A stretch of DNA of 64,000 nt from a virus (Duplodnaviria > Caudoviricetes), in the IMG/VR virus record IMGVR_UViG_3300028048_000057, positions 64,001-128,000 of that record; one strand, written 5' to 3'. The translations under genes were made by a program, and so were the position numbers. Within the stretch, counting starts at the first letter, position 1, and the number at the start of each line of letters is the position of its first letter. Shown one piece after another: positions 16,823 to 34,514 of this stretch. The notes below the pieces were generated by a model, which was not told the DNA's origin, made no database searches, and saw only the letters and a program-made list of their open reading frames with translations.

Positions 16823-16855
16823 GTTCTCACATAGATTGAGAATCTTTTTTTTTTT
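16822..16855 (+). terminator. Intrinsic terminator after nrdG
   Basis: GGTTCTCA-loop-TGAGAATC followed by a long T run. Confidence 0.8.
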
Positions 16856-16880
16856 ATATTTTAAGTGTATAATAAGATGT

Positions 16881-17714
16881 ATGAAAATAATTTATAGAGT
16901 GTATGAAAAGGGTGAAGGTGGTACTGGTTTCTATGGAAACTATGATAACATCTTAAATCAAGAAGTTTGTTTTTGTAATAGCAGAGACCATTTCAAAGAA
17001 ATAATGAGAAGCATGTATGGAGAAGATATTGCTTTTAAAAATTCTAAGAAATTGCCTTTAGGGACTCCTTATATAGTTATTATTAGTGAAAATTGTCATG
17101 ATGCAGAAGAATATGTATCTGTGATGGATTATACTTGCTCTTGTTGTGGAAAACAATTTAAGTCAATTCCAAAGTCATTGAAGAAGATACATTCCACATG
17201 GGAATTTGATAGACTAAATCACAATCTATTTTTATCTAGACAAAATGAAATAGAAAATATGGTTTTTTGTTCAAGTTCTTGTCAAGAAAAAAAAGTTGGT
17301 GAAATAAAACAAGAATTTGAAAGATACAATGAAAAGAATGATATTGTTCCTGAATTTTATGTAGATAGAAATACTTTCTCTAGTTATAATCAATATGGGT
17401 ACATTTATAAAATAACTAAAAGAAGTACAGGTGAATTCTATATAGGACAAACAAAATATAATCCTATATTTAGATGGGGACAACATTTAACTACAGATAG
17501 ATTTCATGTTAAAAATATAATGGATTATATCTTTGAAGTTATTGATGTAGTTACTTGGGAAAATAGAGAGCAGTTGTTGGCTAAAGAGGCATATTGGATA
17601 AACCATGAAAGAGATAAGTGTCCAGAAAAATGTCTTAATAACCAAATTCCAAAAGAAGAAGATTGGAAAGAAAAATTAGAAAATGTATTGCATCAAGAAA
17701 AAATTGATGTATAA
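16881..17714 (+). CDS. GIY-YIG nuclease with an N-terminal Cys-rich region (start probably ATG 16881)
   Basis: GYIYKIT...FYIGQT...RW.QH...E..WI...N in the C-terminal half; CSCC and CSSSC upstream. Confidence 0.8.
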   Translation: MKIIYRVYEKGEGGTGFYGNYDNILNQEVCFCNSRDHFKEIMRSMYGEDIAFKNSKKLPLGTPYIVIISENCHDAEEYVSVMDYTCSCCGKQFKSIPKSLKKIHSTWEFDRLNHNLFLSRQNEIENMVFCSSSCQEKKVGEIKQEFERYNEKNDIVPEFYVDRNTFSSYNQYGYIYKITKRSTGEFYIGQTKYNPIFRWGQHLTTDRFHVKNIMDYIFEVIDVVTWENREQLLAKEAYWINHERDKCPEKCLNNQIPKEEDWKEKLENVLHQEKIDV

Positions 17715-17715
17715 T
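17688..17715 (+). promoter_or_regulatory. SigmaA-type promoter for the ROT-TerD gene
   Basis: TTGCAT-N16-TATAAT. Confidence 0.6.
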
Positions 17716-17722
17716 ATATTGT

Positions 17723-17797
17723 AGACAAACTAAGAGCCTATACTTATTTCTTGGGATAGCCTTTTAAGTTATTAGTTCAATAGTTAGGCCTTTGTCT
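17723..17797 (+). ncRNA. Bulged-helix RNA element, copy 1 (5' leader of the ROT-TerD gene)
   Basis: AGACAAA/TTTGTCT outer stem; GA-GCCTA-TACTTATTTC...TAGT-TAGGC-C core. Confidence 0.75.
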
Positions 17798-17815
17798 CAA
17801 TTTTGGAGGTAATTT

Positions 17816-19810
17816 ATGTTTAGTTTTAGTGAAAAATTATTAAAAATTTTAGTGATGAGACACTACTTAGTCTCATTATATCCAACTTGTAAAGAAGATG
17901 ATACTAGAAGAGCATATTTAAATGCTTATCTTTTATCTAATTTTGGTATTGTGGTAAATAGACCATATCTTTTAAGTGAGGATATGATTAAAATTATATC
18001 TACTATCTATAAATTAAATGTCCCAAAATCATTCTATGATAATCCACAAGATACTAAGTATTTTACAAGAGGCCAACTTTTAATGGAACAATTAGTTTCT
18101 TATTTCTTAGTGGAAACAGGAACAGGAATCTATGATAGAGTAGAACTCTTTAAAAAACATTTACCAGAATATGTGGTTGGTGATGAAATTAAATTAAGAA
18201 AATTCCAAATTTTATACATTGATGAAGCAAATGCAGTTTTAAAAGAAATTGCTACTTCTTTATGTGCATATACAAGACCATTCTCCTTAGAAGAGATGGA
18301 AGACTTTAAAACTCTTTATGCTAATGGTTTTGTTAGTGATGATGTAACTATTGGGTGCAAAGATAACATTATCAATATGCTTGATTTTGATGTTAGACTT
18401 GCTAGATTTTTAGATAGAAAGGATTTAGTAAAACTTTCAATTAAATTTGTAGGTGAAAAGAAAGTTGGTGTTAGAGAACAATTAAATAAATTAGATGCTA
18501 AACAAACTAATATTATTGTAAAATCTTTAGATTTGGTTAGAAATTGTCCTTTAACTAAAAAACAAGCAAAATACTTTAACAAATTACTTTCTATTTATAG
18601 TAGAGAAGAAGTACCAGTAGTGGAAGCAAATTCACCTTATAAATTTGCCATGAAATATTTGAAAGAAGGTAAGATTGTAGAAGCAGCAAGAGTGTTTTCT
18701 AAAAATGGTTCCCTTCTTGAAAGAAATTTAAGAATGCTTTTATCTAGAGCAAATCCACAAGAAGCAATGGAAATTATGAGCATGATAAAAGTTAAGAACC
18801 CAATGGTTTTATTCCAATTAGTTTCTTCATTAAAAGAAGAAGGAATTTCACCAAGAACTTTCTCATTCTTTAAGAATAATCTTGTTAAAAAACATATTGA
18901 AACTATATATGAAACTAAATGGAGAAAGTCTAGACTTAATGAATCCACAAATAAGTTTTTACATGATGCTTGTTTAGAAAAAGTATATGATTATTATAGA
19001 GGATTACCATCTTTAGGTAAAGTTTATATTAGTGATGCTTTTTATAAATTAGGAGTCCCTTCTAATACTAGTGCAAGTGGTAAAGGTATTGATGTTTTAC
19101 CAACAGGTTCTAGATTACCAATTCAAGGTAGTGCTATTAGAACCTTTGTTACTTGGAAAGGTGTATATGACATTGATGCTTCTATTTCTTTAATAGGAGA
19201 TAATAAGAAAGATTATCTTTTCTATGGTAATTATAGTGGAAAACCATTTGGTAATGATATTTTATTCTCAGGTGATTGTAGAGGTAATTCAGGTACAGAG
19301 TACTTTGACATCAAACTTGAACAAGCAAAAGCAAGAGGTTATAAATATCTTGTCTTCTCATTCCATGGATTTAATGGTAGATTAGACCAAGGTGAGATTG
19401 TTTGTGGATACCAAGACAAAACAAATCTTGAAACAAAGGCTTGGGATGCTAAAAATATTGCTTTCCAATTCAATGTTAAAGGGAATACAAGAGCATGTTT
19501 AGGTTTTGCTATTGACCTTACAACTAATGAAATGGTTATTCTTAATCTTATGGTTGAAGATGAATCTAGAGTTGTTCATAGTGGTACAGCAGATGATATG
19601 ATTTCTAAATACTTAAATTCAAGTTTCTTAGATATTAATATGGGCAATATCATTGCTTGTAGAGGTGAGGTTGTTAGTGACCCATGTGAAGCAGATGTTG
19701 TGTTTGATGATACATTTATGCCAGAAATGACTAAAGATGGAACACCAGCACAAAAAGTCATTAGAACATTTGATTTAGAAAAATTAGTTTCTATTTCAAG
19801 TGAAAAATAA
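17816..19810 (+). CDS. ROT/TROVE(Ro60)-like helical protein with a C-terminal TerD domain
   Basis: Helical N-terminal region (SFYDNP, GSLLERNLRMLL); C-terminal TW...DIDAS...SGD...EYFDI TerD motifs; matches the ROT-like+TerD architecture described for Prok-RING_4-type proteins, but lacks an obvious RING. Confidence 0.65.
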   Translation: MFSFSEKLLKILVMRHYLVSLYPTCKEDDTRRAYLNAYLLSNFGIVVNRPYLLSEDMIKIISTIYKLNVPKSFYDNPQDTKYFTRGQLLMEQLVSYFLVETGTGIYDRVELFKKHLPEYVVGDEIKLRKFQILYIDEANAVLKEIATSLCAYTRPFSLEEMEDFKTLYANGFVSDDVTIGCKDNIINMLDFDVRLARFLDRKDLVKLSIKFVGEKKVGVREQLNKLDAKQTNIIVKSLDLVRNCPLTKKQAKYFNKLLSIYSREEVPVVEANSPYKFAMKYLKEGKIVEAARVFSKNGSLLERNLRMLLSRANPQEAMEIMSMIKVKNPMVLFQLVSSLKEEGISPRTFSFFKNNLVKKHIETIYETKWRKSRLNESTNKFLHDACLEKVYDYYRGLPSLGKVYISDAFYKLGVPSNTSASGKGIDVLPTGSRLPIQGSAIRTFVTWKGVYDIDASISLIGDNKKDYLFYGNYSGKPFGNDILFSGDCRGNSGTEYFDIKLEQAKARGYKYLVFSFHGFNGRLDQGEIVCGYQDKTNLETKAWDAKNIAFQFNVKGNTRACLGFAIDLTTNEMVILNLMVEDESRVVHSGTADDMISKYLNSSFLDINMGNIIACRGEVVSDPCEADVVFDDTFMPEMTKDGTPAQKVIRTFDLEKLVSISSEK

Positions 19811-19820
19811 AAAAAGTTAT

Positions 19821-19848
19821 TTGCACTTATTTAAAATAGGTGTATAAT
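19821..19848 (+). promoter_or_regulatory. Promoter for the Y-like RNA pair
   Basis: TTGCAC-N16-TATAAT (GTGTATAAT). Confidence 0.7.
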
Positions 19849-19877
19849 AAATTATAAGGTGGTATTAAGGAGTACCA

Positions 19878-20004
19878 TTAGAACCTATACTTATTTCAGA
19901 AAAATGTTAGGACAAGACTCTATCAAGGGTTCGATTCCCTTCTATCTCAAACTGAGATAGTGGTGTAATGGTAACACAGAGTCACAAACAATTAGTTAGG
20001 TCAA
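19878..20004 (+). ncRNA. Y-RNA (YrlA)-like RNA with a circularly permuted tRNA domain, copy 2
   Basis: GA-ACCTA-TACTTATTTC...TAGT-TAGGT-C enclosing a GACTC/GAGTC stem, T-arm AAGGG-TTCGATT-CCCTT, closed acceptor stem CTATCTCA-AAC-TGAGATAG, D-arm GTGT-AATGGTA-ACAC. Confidence 0.85.
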
Positions 20005-20024
20005 AATTTAATTACATCATTAAA

Positions 20025-20100
20025 TAATAAAGTAGAGCCACTACTTATTTCAGAAGCCCTAAATTGACATTTTAGTTTATACTAGTGTGGCCTATTATTA
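20025..20100 (+). ncRNA. Bulged-helix RNA element, copy 3
   Basis: GA-GCCAC-TACTTATTTC...TAGT-GTGGC-C with compensatory changes; TAATAA/TTATTA outer stem. Confidence 0.75.
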
Positions 20101-20126
20101 TATTAATGGTAGAAAGGAAAAAGAAC

Positions 20127-20708
20127 ATGAAGAAGAATCTATTTATGTTAATCCCTCTTTTAGGATTAATGCTTGTTGGTTGTGGTTCTCAACCTAGTGT
20201 GCATACTCATACCATGACTCATGTTGCAGGTATTGAAGCAACATATACCACAGAAGGTGTTGTTGAACATGACCATTGTACAACATGTGAAAAAGATTTT
20301 GATGCTGATGGAAATGAATTAACTTCAGTAGTTATTCCAGAATTAGAATATTCTAAAACAGTTGATGCTGTTACTTCAGACATTCAAACTACCATTGGTT
20401 CTACAGCACAAGCATTTAATTTATCAAGTTATGCACCAGAAGGAGCCGATTTAACAAACACTCAAGCACCAGAAGATTTATTAGTTGTTCCAGTATCTAT
20501 TCTTTATTCAGTTATGCCAGAATACTTATCAGTAGCAAGTGCTCATTACTATACTACTGAAGAAGATTATTGGGAAGATGAATCAGGTGATACAGTTTAT
20601 TCATTATTGCTTGTTACACCAAGAACAGAAGTAGGTGTTGAAATTGTTGGCTATGTCTACAAAGATGCACTAGTAGGTCAATATAATGTTTTTGAACCAA
20701 AAATTTAA
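20127..20708 (+). CDS. Lipoprotein (start at MKKNLF)
   Basis: Signal peptide with LVGC lipobox; HTH...T.EG...C..C motif seen in Bacillota surface proteins. Confidence 0.75.
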   Translation: MKKNLFMLIPLLGLMLVGCGSQPSVHTHTMTHVAGIEATYTTEGVVEHDHCTTCEKDFDADGNELTSVVIPELEYSKTVDAVTSDIQTTIGSTAQAFNLSSYAPEGADLTNTQAPEDLLVVPVSILYSVMPEYLSVASAHYYTTEEDYWEDESGDTVYSLLLVTPRTEVGVEIVGYVYKDALVGQYNVFEPKI

Positions 20709-21093: not shown

Positions 21094-21170
21094 TGGGATG
21101 TAGACGAATTGGTAAAGTCAAGTGGCTTTGAACCACTTATGTGAGGGTTCGAGACCTTCCATCCCAGCCA
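21094..21170 (+). tRNA. tRNA-Gln(TTG)
   Basis: Cloverleaf, U1-A72, G73, CCA. Confidence 0.95.
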
Positions 21171-21172
21171 AT

Positions 21173-21246
21173 ATGGGTGTAGTTTAATGGCAGAACTATG
21201 GTCTCCAAAACCATTGATGAGAGTTCAATTCTTTCCACCCATGCCA
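21173..21246 (+). tRNA. tRNA-Trp(CCA)
   Basis: Cloverleaf, G73, CCA. Confidence 0.95.
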
Positions 21247-30550: not shown

Positions 30551-31984
30551 ATGTTTTATTTAAATAAATTTATTAAGATTCCTAATAAAAGAGTAGAGGA
30601 TGCTCTTTTTTGGCTTTATCCTTATTTTAAAGATGCTAAAAAAGAACTATACCTTGTAGGTGGATGTGTTAGAGATATGCTCTTAGGTAAGGAACCTAAA
30701 GATTATGATTTTTGCACTAATGTATCTCCAGAAGAAGTTAAACAAATTTTAAGTAAAAATTCTAGATATAGTTTTATTGACACTGGATTAAAGCATGGTA
30801 CAATTACAGTTCATGATAAATGTTTAGATTTATTTTTTGAAATTACTACTTACAGAGTTGATGGTGCATATGAAGATAATAGACATCCAATTAAAGTTAG
30901 TTGGACTTCTAGTTTAGAAGAAGACCTTAGAAGGAGAGACTTTACTATTAATTCATTTGCATATGACCCTTTAGAAAAAGAATTGGTTATGTTAGATGAA
31001 ACTTATCTATATGACCTTAAATTAGGAATCATTAGATGTGTTGGAAATCCTATTGAAAGATTTAATGAAGATGCCTTAAGAATGCTTAGAGCAATTAGGT
31101 TTAGTGCTCAATTAGGGTTCACTATTGAGAAAGAAACTTATAATGCAATTATTCAAGGTGCTCCTCTTATTCAATACATATCTAAAGAAAGAATTAGAGA
31201 TGAATTAACTAAAATTCTTTTGAGTGATAATCCTCAAATGTTAGAATTGTTTAGTTTAACTACATTAGAACATCATGTATTTGAATCAAATACTCCTTAT
31301 ATTGAATCTATGTTACAATGTGAACATGAGAACCCATGGCATTATACAGATGTATTTCATCACACAATGGATGTAATTAAACATCTTCCAAAAGATTTTG
31401 ATTTAAGGTGGAGTGCTTTAATGCATGATATGGGAAAACCTAAAGTAAAGAAACAAAGACCACAAGGGCCTATTGGACACATGGTTTATTATGGGCACCC
31501 AGATATTTCAGAAAAGATTGCTTTAGAAATTATGGAAATTTTAAAATTCTCCAATGAATCTAAGGAAAAAATTAGAAAATTTGTTAAATATCATGACTAC
31601 CCTTTAGATGAAGTTAGTGATGTAAAATTTAAAAAGATGATTATTAATATTGGCCAAGATAATTTTATTGATTTTCTTAAATTAAGAGAAGCAGATGCTT
31701 TAGCACATAGATTACTTAAAAGCACACAATATATTATTGATGCACCAAGTATTGTTAAAGATAGATATATGAAAATAGTTATGAATAAAGAACCTTTAAC
31801 TTTAAAAGACCTTGTTATTAATGGGAATGATTTAAAGAAATTTAAAGTTAGTGGAATTCATATAGGTCAGTGTTTAAATAGATTATTAGATAGAGTTTTA
31901 GAAGACCCTGATTTAAATAAAAAAGAAACATTATTAAATATAGCCAAAAGTTACTTTTGGAAATTAGGTTTATTGGAGGATTAA
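30551..31984 (+). CDS. cca: CCA-adding tRNA nucleotidyltransferase with an HD domain
   Basis: VGGCVRD..LG..PKDYD, EITTYR, EDL.RRDFTIN, EDALRMLRAIRF, ERI..E, HD.GK. Confidence 0.9.
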   Translation: MFYLNKFIKIPNKRVEDALFWLYPYFKDAKKELYLVGGCVRDMLLGKEPKDYDFCTNVSPEEVKQILSKNSRYSFIDTGLKHGTITVHDKCLDLFFEITTYRVDGAYEDNRHPIKVSWTSSLEEDLRRRDFTINSFAYDPLEKELVMLDETYLYDLKLGIIRCVGNPIERFNEDALRMLRAIRFSAQLGFTIEKETYNAIIQGAPLIQYISKERIRDELTKILLSDNPQMLELFSLTTLEHHVFESNTPYIESMLQCEHENPWHYTDVFHHTMDVIKHLPKDFDLRWSALMHDMGKPKVKKQRPQGPIGHMVYYGHPDISEKIALEIMEILKFSNESKEKIRKFVKYHDYPLDEVSDVKFKKMIINIGQDNFIDFLKLREADALAHRLLKSTQYIIDAPSIVKDRYMKIVMNKEPLTLKDLVINGNDLKKFKVSGIHIGQCLNRLLDRVLEDPDLNKKETLLNIAKSYFWKLGLLED

Positions 31985-32249: not shown

Positions 32250-34514
32250 ATGAGAACCTTATTGTTAATGAGAGGTGCTCCAGGTGCTGGTAAGACTACT
32301 TGGATAAAAGAACATGGTTTAGAAAAATATGCACTATCACCAGATAATATGAGAGAACTTTGTAGTTCAGTTGAATTACAACCAACAGGTGAGTTTAAGA
32401 TTTCTCAAGCAAGAGATAATGAAAATGTTGTTTGGGATGTTCTTATGAAAGTTCTTGAACATAGAATGTCTAGAGGTGAGTTTACAGTTATTGATGCAAC
32501 TTGTTCTAAGACAAAGGATATGCAAAAATATAAAGACTTGGCTTCACAATATAGATATAGAATGTATGTGGTTGATTTCACAGACATCCCTTTAGAAACT
32601 TGTTTAGCCCAAAATAAAATGAGGGATGAAATTAAGCAAGTTCCATCTAATGCTATTAGAAATATTTATGCTAGGTTTGCTACTCAAAAAGTTCCTAGTG
32701 GTATTAACATTATTAAAAGAGATGAATTTGATACTTTACTAGAAACACCTATAGATTTAACTGAATATGAAAAGATTGTATTCATTGGAGACATCCATGG
32801 TTGCTTTGATACACTTATGCAATATGGTGATTTTAAGAATGGTTTAAATCCTCATTATGAATATATTTTCTTAGGTGATTTCTTAGATAGAGGAAATCAA
32901 AATGCAGAAGTTTTTAAATGGTTAGCCTCAATTAGAAATGAACCTAATGTTTGTTTTTTAGAAGGAAATCATGAAAGACACATTAGAGATTGGGGTAATG
33001 GTGTTCCAAGTGTTTCTCCAGAATTTGAAAGAAAAACAAAACCTCAATTAGAAAATGCTTGTATTGATAAAAAGGATGCAAGGGAACTCTATAGAAGATG
33101 TAGACAATTTTCACATTTCTATTATGGTAAAAATGAAATCATGGCTTGTCATGGTGGTATTCCAAACTTAAATACAAATTTACTTTATTTACCAAGTGAT
33201 TGTTTTATTCATGGTGTTGGTGAATATAAGGATTATATCACTATAGCAGAGTCTTGGATGGGTCAAACTAAACCTAACCAATATCTTGTCCATGGACATA
33301 GAAATACAGAGGGTTCAGACATTGATGTGTGTGATAGAGTCTTTAATCTTGAAGGTAGAGTTGAATTTGGTGGTCAATTAAGAATTGTTGAATTAACTTT
33401 AAATGAAGATGGAAAACCAATTTGGAATCCTATTTATTTAGATGATTGTCAACCAGTAAATCAACAACTTAATACAGAAGAAAGAAGAGTTGATACAATT
33501 GAAGATGCTATTAATTATTTAAGAAATAATAGATTTATTCAAGAAAAAGTATTAGGAGATGGAATCTCTTCCTTTAACTTTACAAGAGAAGCATTCTACA
33601 AAGGTAATTGGAATAAACAAACTGTTCTTGCTAGAGGTATCTTTATTGATACAATTAATAATAAAATCATGGCAAGAAGTTATGAGAAGTTCTTTAAGAT
33701 TAATGAAGTTCATCAAACAGAGATGGCATCATTAAGAAATTTATTACAATTCCCAGTTAAAGCCTATGTTAAGGAAAATGGATTTTTAGCCATTGTTTCT
33801 TATGATTATAGAAATGATGATTTATTTATTGCTTCTAAATCAACTAACAAAGGTGACTATGTTGAATATATTAAAAAGCAATTAGAGCCTTATAGAGAAA
33901 ATCTTCTAAACTATTTTAGAAAAGAGTATGACCATCTTTATAAAGACAGTAAAGAAGTGAGTGGTATATCCTTTGTATTTGAATGTATTGATATTGAAAA
34001 TGACCCACATATTATCAAATATGATTCAAGTAAAATTGTCTTATTAGACATTATTTATAATGAACTTAGTTATAGCACTTATGATTATAATTCCCTAGTT
34101 CAAATAGCATTATATTTAGGAAATTGTCCAGTTAAAGAAAAAGCATTTGAACTAAAAGATTGGGATGCTTTTAGAAGTCTCTACAATCAAGTTCAAGATG
34201 AAGAATATAAATATAATGGAAATTATATTGAAGGATTTGTATTTGTAGATTCTAATGGCTTTATGACCAAATGTAAAACAGGTTATTACAATCTTTGGAA
34301 AAAGATGAGAGGTGTTTGTGATACTACATTAAGATGTGGTTATATAACAAAAACAGGAATGTTAACTTCTTCTATTGAAAATTTATTTTATGGTTTTTGT
34401 AGAGAAATTTATAATAAATATTATGATAAGGATACTAAAGAATATCCATTTAAAACAGACATTATTTCAATGAGAGAAAGATTTATTGAACAAGGTATTG
34501 ACAAATTAAACTAA
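32250..34514 (+). CDS. Polynucleotide kinase-metallophosphoesterase-RNA ligase (Rnl1-like) fusion
   Basis: GAPGAGKT and IDAT; GDIHG/GDFLDRG/GNHE/HGH; ligase KFF, KENG, EGFV, KCK. Confidence 0.9.
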   Translation: MRTLLLMRGAPGAGKTTWIKEHGLEKYALSPDNMRELCSSVELQPTGEFKISQARDNENVVWDVLMKVLEHRMSRGEFTVIDATCSKTKDMQKYKDLASQYRYRMYVVDFTDIPLETCLAQNKMRDEIKQVPSNAIRNIYARFATQKVPSGINIIKRDEFDTLLETPIDLTEYEKIVFIGDIHGCFDTLMQYGDFKNGLNPHYEYIFLGDFLDRGNQNAEVFKWLASIRNEPNVCFLEGNHERHIRDWGNGVPSVSPEFERKTKPQLENACIDKKDARELYRRCRQFSHFYYGKNEIMACHGGIPNLNTNLLYLPSDCFIHGVGEYKDYITIAESWMGQTKPNQYLVHGHRNTEGSDIDVCDRVFNLEGRVEFGGQLRIVELTLNEDGKPIWNPIYLDDCQPVNQQLNTEERRVDTIEDAINYLRNNRFIQEKVLGDGISSFNFTREAFYKGNWNKQTVLARGIFIDTINNKIMARSYEKFFKINEVHQTEMASLRNLLQFPVKAYVKENGFLAIVSYDYRNDDLFIASKSTNKGDYVEYIKKQLEPYRENLLNYFRKEYDHLYKDSKEVSGISFVFECIDIENDPHIIKYDSSKIVLLDIIYNELSYSTYDYNSLVQIALYLGNCPVKEKAFELKDWDAFRSLYNQVQDEEYKYNGNYIEGFVFVDSNGFMTKCKTGYYNLWKKMRGVCDTTLRCGYITKTGMLTSSIENLFYGFCREIYNKYYDKDTKEYPFKTDIISMRERFIEQGIDKLN

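What the first reader, a model, noticed from the sequence alone, without database searches (positions are those of the whole stretch)
19916..19983. Circularly permuted tRNA mimic inside RNA copy 2
Seen: order is stem GACTC (19916-20), variable loop, T-arm with TTCGATT (19925-41), acceptor stem closed by an AAC loop (19942-60), U8-G9, D-arm with GG (19963-77), GAGTC (19979-83). There is no anticodon and no CCA; the anticodon stem instead continues into the conserved bulged helix. It has its own promoter (19821-48). Established: this is the topology of bacterial YrlA Y RNAs. Inference: an elbow mimic that tethers a nuclease or ligase to the ROT protein, or decoys host tRNA-binding defence proteins. 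Standard tRNA scanners would probably miss it.
Basis: partly seen in the sequence, partly recalled or inferred. Interest (0 to 1): 0.8.

Follow-up and report, generated by a model that had tools for sequence, protein, structure and literature searches.

The report
Back-to-front tRNA mimic in phage RNA
A small RNA of this uncultured large phage carries a real, conserved tRNA look-alike wired back to front. It sits on a conserved stem that always travels with one unstudied protein, which suggests an undescribed counterpart of the Ro60/Y-RNA particle that may interfere with enzymes that handle tRNA.

Summary
Bases 19916-19983 fold into a four-way junction in the order anticodon-type stem, variable loop, T arm, capped acceptor stem, U8-G9, D arm. 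There is no anticodon loop and no CCA. tRNA scanners miss it.

It is not chance. In 32 equivalent modules from related phages, 95% of pair cells are paired and 18 of 21 pairs carry compensatory changes. The tRNA tertiary positions are kept.

The module is the cargo of a 123-nt RNA (19881-20003). Its two ends form a conserved bulged "handle" helix. Three handles flank a 664-aa gene in the window, and the handle recurs beside homologues of that gene in about 100 metagenomic phage loci and in bacterial MAGs.

The topology is that of YrlA. Rfam's YrlA model is the only non-chance family hit: 22 bits here, up to 43 bits in relatives. It is not a YrlA member: the score is below the gathering cut-off, the GNCGAA motif is absent, and no TROVE protein is detectable. 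The partner protein is helical with a TerD-fold domain.

In relatives the cargo is often a whole permuted tRNA with an authentic anticodon loop. The function (decoy or tether for tRNA-binding enzymes) is inference. This scan found the same system before on at least six other genomes. I found no publication describing it.

The parts
19820..19848 (+). Promoter-like site (TTTGCA, 17 nt, TATAAT). Predicted start near 19855, about 25 nt before the handle.
   Evidence: 10 of 12 matches. One search shows TATAAT enriched upstream of handles in relatives (87 of 207 against 6.8% at random positions). In the window the hexamer starts 38 nt before the handle.
19881..20003 (+). Whole small RNA, copy 2: handle plus linkers plus tRNA-like cargo (123 nt).
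   Evidence: It falls in the 112-130 nt size class of cargo-bearing handles.
19881..19897 (+). Handle 5' strand: G, bulged A, ACCTA, bulged T, ACT, then the invariant TATTTC.
   Evidence: 207 distinct handles with 62 distinct covarying 5-bp helices.
19898..19915 (+). 5' linker. It contains UGUU (19905-08), which can pair with AACA (19987-90), and a UAGGAC motif shared with relatives of the same cargo type.
   Evidence: Sequence read, parse. The pairing is seen in few sequences only and is inferred.
19916..19983 (+). Circularly permuted tRNA-like module. In order: anticodon-type stem 3' strand, variable loop, T arm, capped acceptor stem, U8-G9, D arm, A26, anticodon-type stem 5' strand.
   Evidence: and 92 (56.8 bits to model R1, of which it is a training member).
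19984..19993 (+). 3' linker (ACAAACAATT).
19994..20003 (+). Handle 3' strand: AGT, TAGGT, C, A.
17734..17791 (+). Handle RNA copy 1, a short hairpin cargo in the leader of the protein gene.
   Evidence: A handle in the leader is the rule in bacterial and phage homologue loci.
17816..19810 (+). Partner candidate P0001, 664 aa: a helical N-terminal part plus a TerD-fold domain (residues 437-596).
   Evidence: 604 homologues at E <= 0.001 among 8,000 scored candidates, no Pfam domain on the 120 listed. (TerD, Z 14.9, rmsd 2.4 over 144 residues). (Foldseek TerD, E 2.8e-5).
20035..20093 (+). Handle RNA copy 3 (short hairpin cargo). No -10 hexamer of its own, so probably co-transcribed with copy 2. 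It ends before the next ORF, which starts at 20085 or 20127.
   Evidence: No terminator-like site in 17600-20200.

Best explanation
SHOWN. Bases 19916-19983 are a real, selectively maintained tRNA-shaped domain: T arm, D arm, capped acceptor stem and a 5-bp anticodon-type stem, with all elbow-forming positions in place. It is wired in circularly permuted order and has neither an anticodon loop nor CCA.

It is the variable cargo of a roughly 123-nt RNA. The 5' and 3' ends of that RNA pair into a conserved handle: a G-C pair, a bulged A, 5 covarying base pairs, a bulged U, RCU paired with AGY, then the invariant UAUUUC. Handles occur in the same genomes as one 650-aa helical plus TerD-fold protein, and one handle usually forms that gene's leader.

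INFERRED. The protein binds the handle. This would give an RNA-protein particle built on the plan of Ro60 with YrlA/YrlB Y RNAs, but from parts that are not detectably homologous. The leader copy would let the protein regulate its own mRNA. The displayed tRNA elbow would recruit or trap a protein that recognises tRNA shape.

Relatives display whole tRNA bodies with authentic Lys, Arg, Asn, Pro, Leu, Thr and Ile anticodon loops. This phage also carries a CCA-adding enzyme and a kinase-phosphoesterase-Rnl1 repair ligase. The most likely task is therefore interference in the conflict over tRNA, as a competitive decoy or tether for host tRNA-cutting or tRNA-processing enzymes. The window's copy has no anticodon loop, so it would address factors that read the elbow or acceptor stem rather than the anticodon.
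For: Structure: (fold, z = -3.05); 95.4% of cells paired, 18 of 21 pairs with double changes, 0 of 500 shuffles reach the observed values, slid controls 36-50%. U8:A14 in 34 of 34, G18G19 in 34 of 34, TTC.A in 34 of 34; the 15:48 pair is G:C in 29 and A:U in 4.

The closest relative, L022, keeps the same cargo type through compensatory changes in all four stems.

YrlA-type topology.

Handle family. Frames were found in 97 of 102 sources (101 loci plus the window) under the looser one-mismatch screen, which also produced false positives. After filtering there are 207 distinct handles with 62 helix variants.

Link to the protein: (extra handle clusters lie on contigs that encode the homologue elsewhere; a single leader handle in bacterial MAG loci).

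Expression signal: (-10 hexamers 12-16 nt upstream, which would put the transcript start at the handle's G1).

The module is not a recent copy of any of the phage's 25 tRNAs, and it is the only such module in the genome.

Context of tRNA conflict: CCA-adding enzyme at 30551-31984; kinase-phosphoesterase-Rnl1 at 32250-34514; authentic anticodon loops on relatives' cargoes.

Published precedent for the decoy idea for YrlA: PMC7790460.
Against: There are no data on transcripts, binding or processing. The RNA-protein pairing rests on co-occurrence only.

The N-terminal domain gives only generic alpha-solenoid matches (Z <= 7.6). No RNA-binding fold is identified, and TerD domains are not known RNA binders.

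The window's module has A15:C48, the one exception to the covarying 15:48 pair.

The folding z-score of the whole 129-nt RNA is weak (-1.40).

Two bacterial loci I examined lie among housekeeping genes with no RNA-repair or defence neighbours, so the role need not be phage counter-defence.

Twelve of 34 relatives keep N73-CCA in the acceptor loop. That could mean processing into chargeable RNAs rather than mimicry.
Confidence: 0.6

Rival explanations
1. It is a precursor of a working tRNA, either a permuted or a split tRNA gene. RNase P and 3' trimming would open the acceptor loop. The handle would be removed and the ends joined, for example by the phage Rnl1 ligase, and CCA would be added by the phage enzyme.
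For: Among relatives, at least 16 of the 36 cargoes examined keep complete, isoacceptor-typical anticodon loops, with the chain break always inside the anticodon stem (29/30, and 28/29 by eye in two further cargoes). Twelve of 34 have N73-CCA plus 1-5 nt in the acceptor loop, against 0.6 expected by chance. A proline-type cargo keeps C1-G72 and A73. The phage encodes a ligase and a CCA-adding enzyme. M. smegmatis YrlA is cut by RNase P and receives CCA in vitro (PMC4201824).
Against: The window's copy has no anticodon loop, no U33 context and no CCA, and its 8-bp acceptor stem is capped by 3 nt. No joining of its linkers yields a consistent anticodon: ARAGORN calls scatter over Val, Leu, Phe and Ser depending on the junction chosen. 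The handle bulges lie 10-20 nt from the tRNA body, so cutting there could not restore a tRNA. No splicing endonuclease was recognised. The phage already has 25 ordinary tRNA genes.
Confidence: 0.07
2. It is a cis-acting processing or regulatory element of a polycistronic transcript. The tRNA-like fold would serve as an RNase P/RNase Z punctuation mark or stabiliser for the flanking mRNAs (the 664-aa gene upstream and the lipoprotein-like gene downstream), not as a free RNA-protein particle.
For: No terminator-like site lies between the protein gene, copies 2 and 3 and the next ORF. Copy 3 has no -10 hexamer of its own. Copy 1 is an mRNA leader. tRNA-like punctuation is established elsewhere (my own knowledge: mitochondrial transcripts, MALAT1 mascRNA).
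Against: Most handles in relatives have a -10 hexamer placed so that transcription would start at the handle's first G. That fits discrete small RNAs whose two ends form the handle. Handles occur in tandem arrays of up to 8 with no ORFs between them. The capped acceptor stem lacks a normal RNase P/Z substrate end.
Confidence: 0.12
3. It is a decaying relic of recombination between tandem tRNA genes, with no function of its own.
For: The permuted-module model R1 also scores the junctions between adjacent ordinary tRNA genes at 17-35 bits. CCA plus a short spacer in the loops of relatives looks like an inter-tRNA junction. Origin from a tandem tRNA pair is therefore plausible.
Against: Compensatory changes occur in all four stems and the tertiary positions are invariant across 32-34 diverged copies. 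The cargo type is kept between the window and L022, whose partner proteins are 70% identical. The module is always embedded in the handle.
Confidence: 0.03
4. It is the tRNA-like domain of a two-piece (permuted) tmRNA.
For: The gene order is the same as in permuted ssrA genes: T arm, acceptor 3' strand, gap, acceptor 5' strand. Weak partial Rfam tmRNA hits occur near equivalent RNAs in three loci (E 0.002-0.04).
Against: ARAGORN, which detects permuted tmRNA, finds none. The RNA is only 123 nt, with no tag reading frame or pseudoknots. It has a full 4-bp D stem, which tmRNA lacks (my own knowledge), and no CCA.
Confidence: 0.01

Closest known systems
YrlA Y RNAs with bacterial and phage Ro60/Rsr (Rfam RF02553; Chen et al. 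2014, PMC4201824)
   Same: The permuted order is the same: stem, variable loop, T arm, capped acceptor, U8-N9, D arm, stem. There is no anticodon loop. The G15:C48 / A15:U48 covariation is shared. The tRNA-like domain sits on a terminal stem made by the RNA's own ends. Short cargo-less sister RNAs accompany it, as YrlB accompanies YrlA. It lies next to the gene of a large putative partner protein and also occurs in phages.
   Different: Scores are 22-43 bits against a gathering score of 69. The GNCGAAN0-1G motif is missing, and the conserved single strand here is CUUAUUUC with a different bulge pattern. No TROVE or vWA protein is present; the neighbour is a helical protein with a TerD-fold domain. 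Cargoes in relatives can be whole tRNAs with real anticodon loops, or even an unpermuted tRNA.
Circularly permuted and split tRNA genes (Cyanidioschyzon merolae; Nanoarchaeum equitans). Recalled from my own knowledge, with reviews PMC4090602 and PMC3400036 found.
   Same: The 3' half lies before the 5' half with a short spacer between the acceptor strands. The flanks pair into a helix with bulges. In relatives, the break sits at a fixed position in the anticodon arm.
   Different: Those RNAs are matured through a bulge-helix-bulge motif placed exactly at the junction, by a splicing endonuclease that is absent here. The window's copy has no anticodon loop to restore.
D. radiodurans Yrn1 with Rsr and PNPase (RYPER) (cited in PMC4201824 and PMC7790460)
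   Same: It offers a model for how a protein-bound handle plus a second RNA module can tether another enzyme.
   Different: Yrn1 has the opposite orientation of the T and D elements. Its protein partner is Ro60. No PNPase link is shown here.

Membership tests
YrlA (Rfam RF02553) | Scores at or above the Rfam gathering score (69 bits) | tested here: not met
   22.4 bits, E 0.18, at 19901-19997. The best score among equivalent RNAs of relatives is 43 bits.
YrlA (Rfam RF02553) | tRNA-like domain with T arm, D arm, closed acceptor stem and variable loop in permuted order | tested here: met
YrlA (Rfam RF02553) | GNCGAAN0-1G motif near the 5' end, the presumed Rsr-binding site (PMC4201824) | tested here: not met
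   The motif is absent from 19855-20003. The conserved 5' strand is GA-N5-N-RCUUAUUUC.
YrlA (Rfam RF02553) | Encoded next to a Ro60/TROVE gene | tested here: not met
   No TROVE match by Pfam on P0001 or on 28 homologues. No six-frame TROVE match in the 161-kb genome, while control genomes gave matches.
Ro60/TROVE fold (partner protein) | HEAT-repeat ring closed by a vWA domain | tested here: inconclusive
   Residues 271-396 give only generic alpha-solenoid matches (Z <= 7.6). No Ro60 chain was listed. The C-terminal domain has the TerD fold, not vWA (Z 14.9).
TerD domain (PF02342) | TerD beta-sandwich fold | tested here: met
   VIA-align against 2qz7_B: Z 14.9, rmsd 2.4, 144 residues aligned, model residues 437-596. 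Foldseek against 2kxt: E 2.8e-5. By sequence, only 1 of 28 members gives a weak Pfam hit (E 0.14).
Canonical tRNA gene | Contiguous cloverleaf with anticodon loop, detected by ARAGORN or Rfam RF00005 | tested here: not met
   No anticodon loop and no free acceptor end.
Permuted tRNA gene that matures to a tRNA | Both halves of one tRNA, including a restorable 7-nt anticodon loop and a processable acceptor end | tested here: not met
   For the window's copy there is no consistent anticodon on un-permuting and no CCA. Some relatives do meet the sequence part of this test. Processing itself cannot be tested here.
Two-piece tmRNA | tRNA-like domain plus tag reading frame and pseudoknots | tested here: not met
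   ARAGORN finds no tmRNA. The RNA is 123 nt with no tag ORF.

The most novel reading that the evidence does not exclude
The handle RNAs and the TerD-domain protein form a previously undescribed, widespread RNA-protein particle that evolved independently of Ro60/Y RNA. It would work as a programmable display rack for tRNA shapes. Phages would load it with elbow-only mimics, as here, or with whole tRNA bodies bearing the anticodon loops that host anticodon nucleases attack (Lys, Arg, Asn and others). This would titrate, sense or redirect those nucleases while the phage's ligase and CCA-adding enzyme repair the real tRNAs.
Probability: 0.25. Interest if true: 0.85.

Novelty: new variant of a known kind. 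Interest (0 to 1): 0.72.

Why it matters
Y RNAs with a tRNA-like domain are known only as partners of Ro60, and what that domain does is still open.

This case shows the same RNA design: a terminal protein-binding stem plus a back-to-front tRNA elbow. Here it is built on a different handle and travels with a different protein, in hundreds of uncultured large phages of gut and rumen and in Clostridia-type bacteria.

If the pairing holds, the design arose twice. That argues that displaying a tRNA shape on a protein is a general solution to some problem in tRNA surveillance or in phage-host conflict. The family's interchangeable cargoes, which include authentic anticodon loops, give a direct experimental handle on what the tRNA-like domain is for.

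It also marks a class of tRNA-derived genes that standard annotation misses.

Tried and rejected
- **DNA search of cultured phages.** A search with 17700-20110 found nothing. A protein search found only two distant partial matches in uncultured records. No named phage or host could be assigned.
- **Sequence searches for the protein.** Pfam, PHROGs and PDB sequence searches gave nothing usable. The one PHROG hit is a family of unknown function.
- **ESM Atlas.** The search on residues 1-430 gave only unnamed viral clusters and one labelled "TerD family", all scoring below 0.9.
- **Fold searches of the N-terminal domain.** Whole-protein and domain-only models gave only generic helical-repeat matches. 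No Ro60 chain was listed. I treat TROVE-likeness as unresolved, not excluded.
- **Un-permuting the modules and running ARAGORN.** Nearly all become "tRNAs", but the anticodon call depends on the junction chosen. This test only confirms the tRNA-like arms. It fixes an identity only where the loop is intact.
- **IMG/VR scan for the handle 5' strand.** 47 of the 80 stretches I fetched and examined (119 matched) were chance matches with no closing strand, so raw motif counts are not usable.
- **Burroughs & Aravind 2016 (PMC5062991).** The paper is not held, so I could not check whether a TerD-linked system is described there.
- **Literature searches.** Searches for such a system found none.
- **The look-up of encoding contigs.** The closest homologues (84-88% identity) could not be inspected for their RNAs.
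- **RNA-repair neighbours in bacteria.** Two bacterial loci showed no RNA-repair neighbours.

Full report
**1. The observation**

The window is AT-rich phage DNA. It is part of a 161,442-bp IMG/VR virus record estimated at 91% complete.

Bases 19916-19983 read, in order:
- GACTC
- TATC
- AAGGG-TTCGATT-CCCTT
- CTATCTCA-AAC-TGAGATAG
- TG
- GTGT-AATGGTA-ACAC
- A
- GAGTC

Folded alone, the 68 nt adopt exactly this four-way junction: -21.8 kcal/mol, z = -3.05, and 1 of 200 shuffles folds as well. The same junction appears when the whole 129-nt RNA is folded, together with an outer helix formed by the two ends.

ARAGORN finds nine ordinary tRNAs in the window but not this element. The Rfam tRNA model does not report it even at E <= 10.

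**2. More than chance**

The neighbouring ORF (17816-19810, 664 aa, P0001) returned 604 homologues at E <= 0.001 among 8,000 scored candidates, all from metagenomes. With an alignment of 28 of them I fetched 21 viral, 80 metagenomic and 25 genome-bin loci.

Beside these genes the same kind of RNA recurs. I found 207 distinct "handles" of the form GA, 5 nt, N, RCUUAUUUC ... AGY, 5 complementary nt, C. There are 62 different covarying 5-bp helices, and the R:Y pair is A:U in 124 and G:C in 81.

About 131 handles carry a short hairpin. About 45 carry a 60-100-nt insert with a T loop.

I parsed 34 distinct inserts into tRNA arms:
- The T stem is paired in 34 of 34 at every position.
- The acceptor stem is paired in 32-34 of 34.
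- The D stem is paired in 30-34 of 34.

On a MAFFT alignment of 32 modules, 95.4% of cells are paired, against 36-50% with slid partners. 18 of 21 pairs carry changes on both sides. No shuffle out of 500 reaches any measure.

The positions that build the tRNA elbow are kept:
- U8:A14 in 34 of 34.
- G18G19 in 34 of 34.
- T54-T55-C56 and A58 in 34 of 34.
- A21 in 34 of 34.
- The 15:48 pair is G:C in 29 and A:U in 4.

The single A:C at 15:48 is the window's own copy.

The nearest relative with DNA in hand is L022, whose partner protein is 70% identical. It has the same cargo type, with compensatory changes in all four stems. The element is therefore a maintained structure, not a relic.

**3. Anatomy of the RNA in the window**

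The handle is built as follows:
- G19881 pairs with C20002, and A19882 is bulged.
- ACCTA (19883-87) pairs with TAGGT (19997-20001), and T19888 is bulged.
- ACT (19889-91) pairs with AGT (19994-96).
- TATTTC (19892-97) is invariant.

An 18-nt 5' linker and a 10-nt 3' linker join the handle to the tRNA-like module.

Two further handles with short cargo lie at 17734-17791, in the leader of the protein gene, and at 20035-20093. A pattern search and a family-specific covariance model find no further handle or permuted module in the genome.

**4. Promoter**

The promoter-like site 19820-19848 is real but not above chance by itself.

Comparatively, an exact TATAAT lies within 60 nt upstream of 87 of 207 handles, against 6.8% of random positions. 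For the first handle of a cluster the figure is 65 of 107. The usual distance is 12-16 nt, which would start transcription at the handle's first G.

The window's copy 2 belongs to a second group in which the hexamer lies about 38 nt upstream. Copy 3 has no hexamer, and no terminator-like site is predicted in 17600-20200. Copies 2 and 3 may therefore be one transcript.

**5. Comparison with YrlA**

Rfam's YrlA model is the only family that aligns meaningfully. Here it scores 22.4 bits, E 0.18, and matches the T arm, the closed acceptor and the D arm.

In 14 related loci it hits the equivalent RNAs at 31-43 bits, with E from 3.6e-6 to 6e-3. Most of these alignments use model positions 23-86, which is the tRNA-like part.

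All scores are below the gathering score of 69. Chen et al. 2014 (PMC4201824) define YrlA RNAs by three features: a neighbouring Ro60/TROVE gene, a 5' GNCGAAN0-1G motif and the tRNA-like domain. Only the third is met here.

**6. The neighbouring protein**

No Pfam family matches P0001 or its homologues at useful E-values. A PDB sequence profile finds nothing. A six-frame TROVE search of the whole phage is empty, although two control genomes gave matches.

An AlphaFold model (pLDDT 78) has a C-terminal domain, residues 437-596, with the TerD fold. VIA-align gives Z 14.9, rmsd 2.4 over 144 residues, and Foldseek gives E 2.8e-5.

The N-terminal 430 residues, modelled alone, give only generic helical-repeat matches with Z <= 7.6.

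So "TerD" is supported. "ROT/TROVE-like" is neither supported nor excluded.

**7. What relatives add**

The cargoes fall into types.

In at least 16 of the 36 cargoes examined, a complete anticodon stem-loop is kept on the 5' side and the chain break lies inside the 5' strand of the anticodon stem. The script placed all 16 at 29/30. Two further cargoes appear by eye to break at 28/29.

The loops are those of Lys UUU, Arg UCU, Asn GUU, Pro UGG, Leu UAG, Thr GGU/UGU and Ile UAU. Position 37 fits the isoacceptor: G37 for Pro and Leu, A37 for the rest.

Others, including the window's copy, have a closed 5-bp stem with both strands leaving where the anticodon loop would be. This is the YrlA arrangement.

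Some cargoes are only a T arm plus a hairpin. One handle (L002 3474-3610) holds an unpermuted tRNA.

In 12 of 34 modules the acceptor loop starts with N73-CCA followed by 1-5 nt, where 0.6 would be expected by chance. The permuted-module model also scores the junctions between neighbouring ordinary tRNA genes at 17-35 bits.

Together these suggest that the cargoes arose from tandem tRNA gene pairs. The window's module is not close to any of the phage's 25 tRNAs.

**8. Distribution**

No cultured phage in GenBank encodes the protein.

Handles found away from the gene lie on contigs that encode it elsewhere.

In bacterial genome bins (Clostridia, Christensenellaceae, Erysipelotrichaceae and others) a single short handle precedes the gene. 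Two such loci lie among housekeeping genes, dnaG-rpoD and metG, with no RNA-repair genes nearby.

**9. Mechanism**

What is shown: a conserved tRNA-shaped domain on a conserved terminal handle, co-inherited with one protein.

What is inferred: the protein binds the handle, and the particle presents the tRNA shape to another factor.

The window also encodes a CCA-adding enzyme (30551-31984) and a kinase-phosphoesterase-Rnl1 fusion (32250-34514). That is a tRNA-repair kit. It argues that enzymes which cut tRNA are a real pressure on this phage.

Hughes et al. 2020 (PMC7790460) proposed that YrlA's tRNA-like domain could competitively inhibit an anticodon nuclease. The authentic anticodon loops on relatives' cargoes fit that idea better than any other I can name.

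The window's copy has no anticodon loop. It would have to act on factors that read the elbow or the acceptor stem.

Maturation into a working tRNA is unlikely for this copy, since it has no anticodon loop and no CCA and no consistent anticodon appears on un-permuting. It stays open for some relatives.

**10. Novelty and earlier notes**

Notes from this scan describe the same handle-plus-TerD-protein system on at least six other genomes, and in this window. I re-derived the main points independently.

I did not confirm the claim that the gene often sits in RNA-repair operons, but I examined only two bacterial loci.

I found no publication describing the system.

Noticed in passing
L002:3474-3610: One handle in a related phage carries an ordinary, unpermuted tRNA-like insert (Rfam tRNA, 42.6 bits at L002 3513-3588). 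The handle can therefore hold tRNA cargo in either topology.
   Followed up: partly
G000:C1:85132-85202 and other hits (window 21132-21202): The covariance model of permuted modules scores the junctions between adjacent ordinary tRNA genes at 17-35 bits. In addition, 12 of 34 cargo acceptor loops are N73-CCA plus a 1-5 nt spacer. Both suggest the cargoes arose from tandem tRNA gene pairs.
   Followed up: partly
window 19905-19915, and L002:3943-4062, L025:3549-3667: Cargoes of the window's type share a UAGGAC/UGGGAC motif in the 5' linker just before the tRNA-like module. In the window and in L022 a 4-bp helix between the two linkers seems to covary (UGUU/AACA against UUUC/GAAA). There are too few sequences to judge.
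   Followed up: no
window 16836-17714: A GIY-YIG homing-endonuclease-like ORF (Pfam E 4.8e-7; PHROG family annotated as homing endonuclease) sits between nrdG and the handle/protein locus.
   Followed up: no
window 30551-31984 and 32250-34514: A CCA-adding enzyme with an HD domain and a single-chain kinase-phosphoesterase-Rnl1 RNA ligase lie 10-14 kb downstream of the RNA. Together they form a tRNA-repair kit.
   Followed up: partly
L229-L253 (bacterial genome bins), e.g. L243:5822-5867, L238:5912-5961: In bacterial homologue loci a single short handle lies directly upstream of the gene. The pair next to the bulge is U:A (UCU/AGA) instead of A:U or G:C, a third covarying state. Two of these loci lie among housekeeping genes (dnaG-rpoD; metG).
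   Followed up: partly
L251:595-1888: A Spirochaetaceae-bin contig carries eight handles in tandem upstream of the homologue. They use the core variant CUUACUUC, and several have tRNA-like cargo.
   Followed up: no
window 19857-19880: A small hairpin (TGGTA ... TACCA) lies between the predicted transcription start and the handle of copy 2. Most relatives lack such a leader.
   Followed up: no
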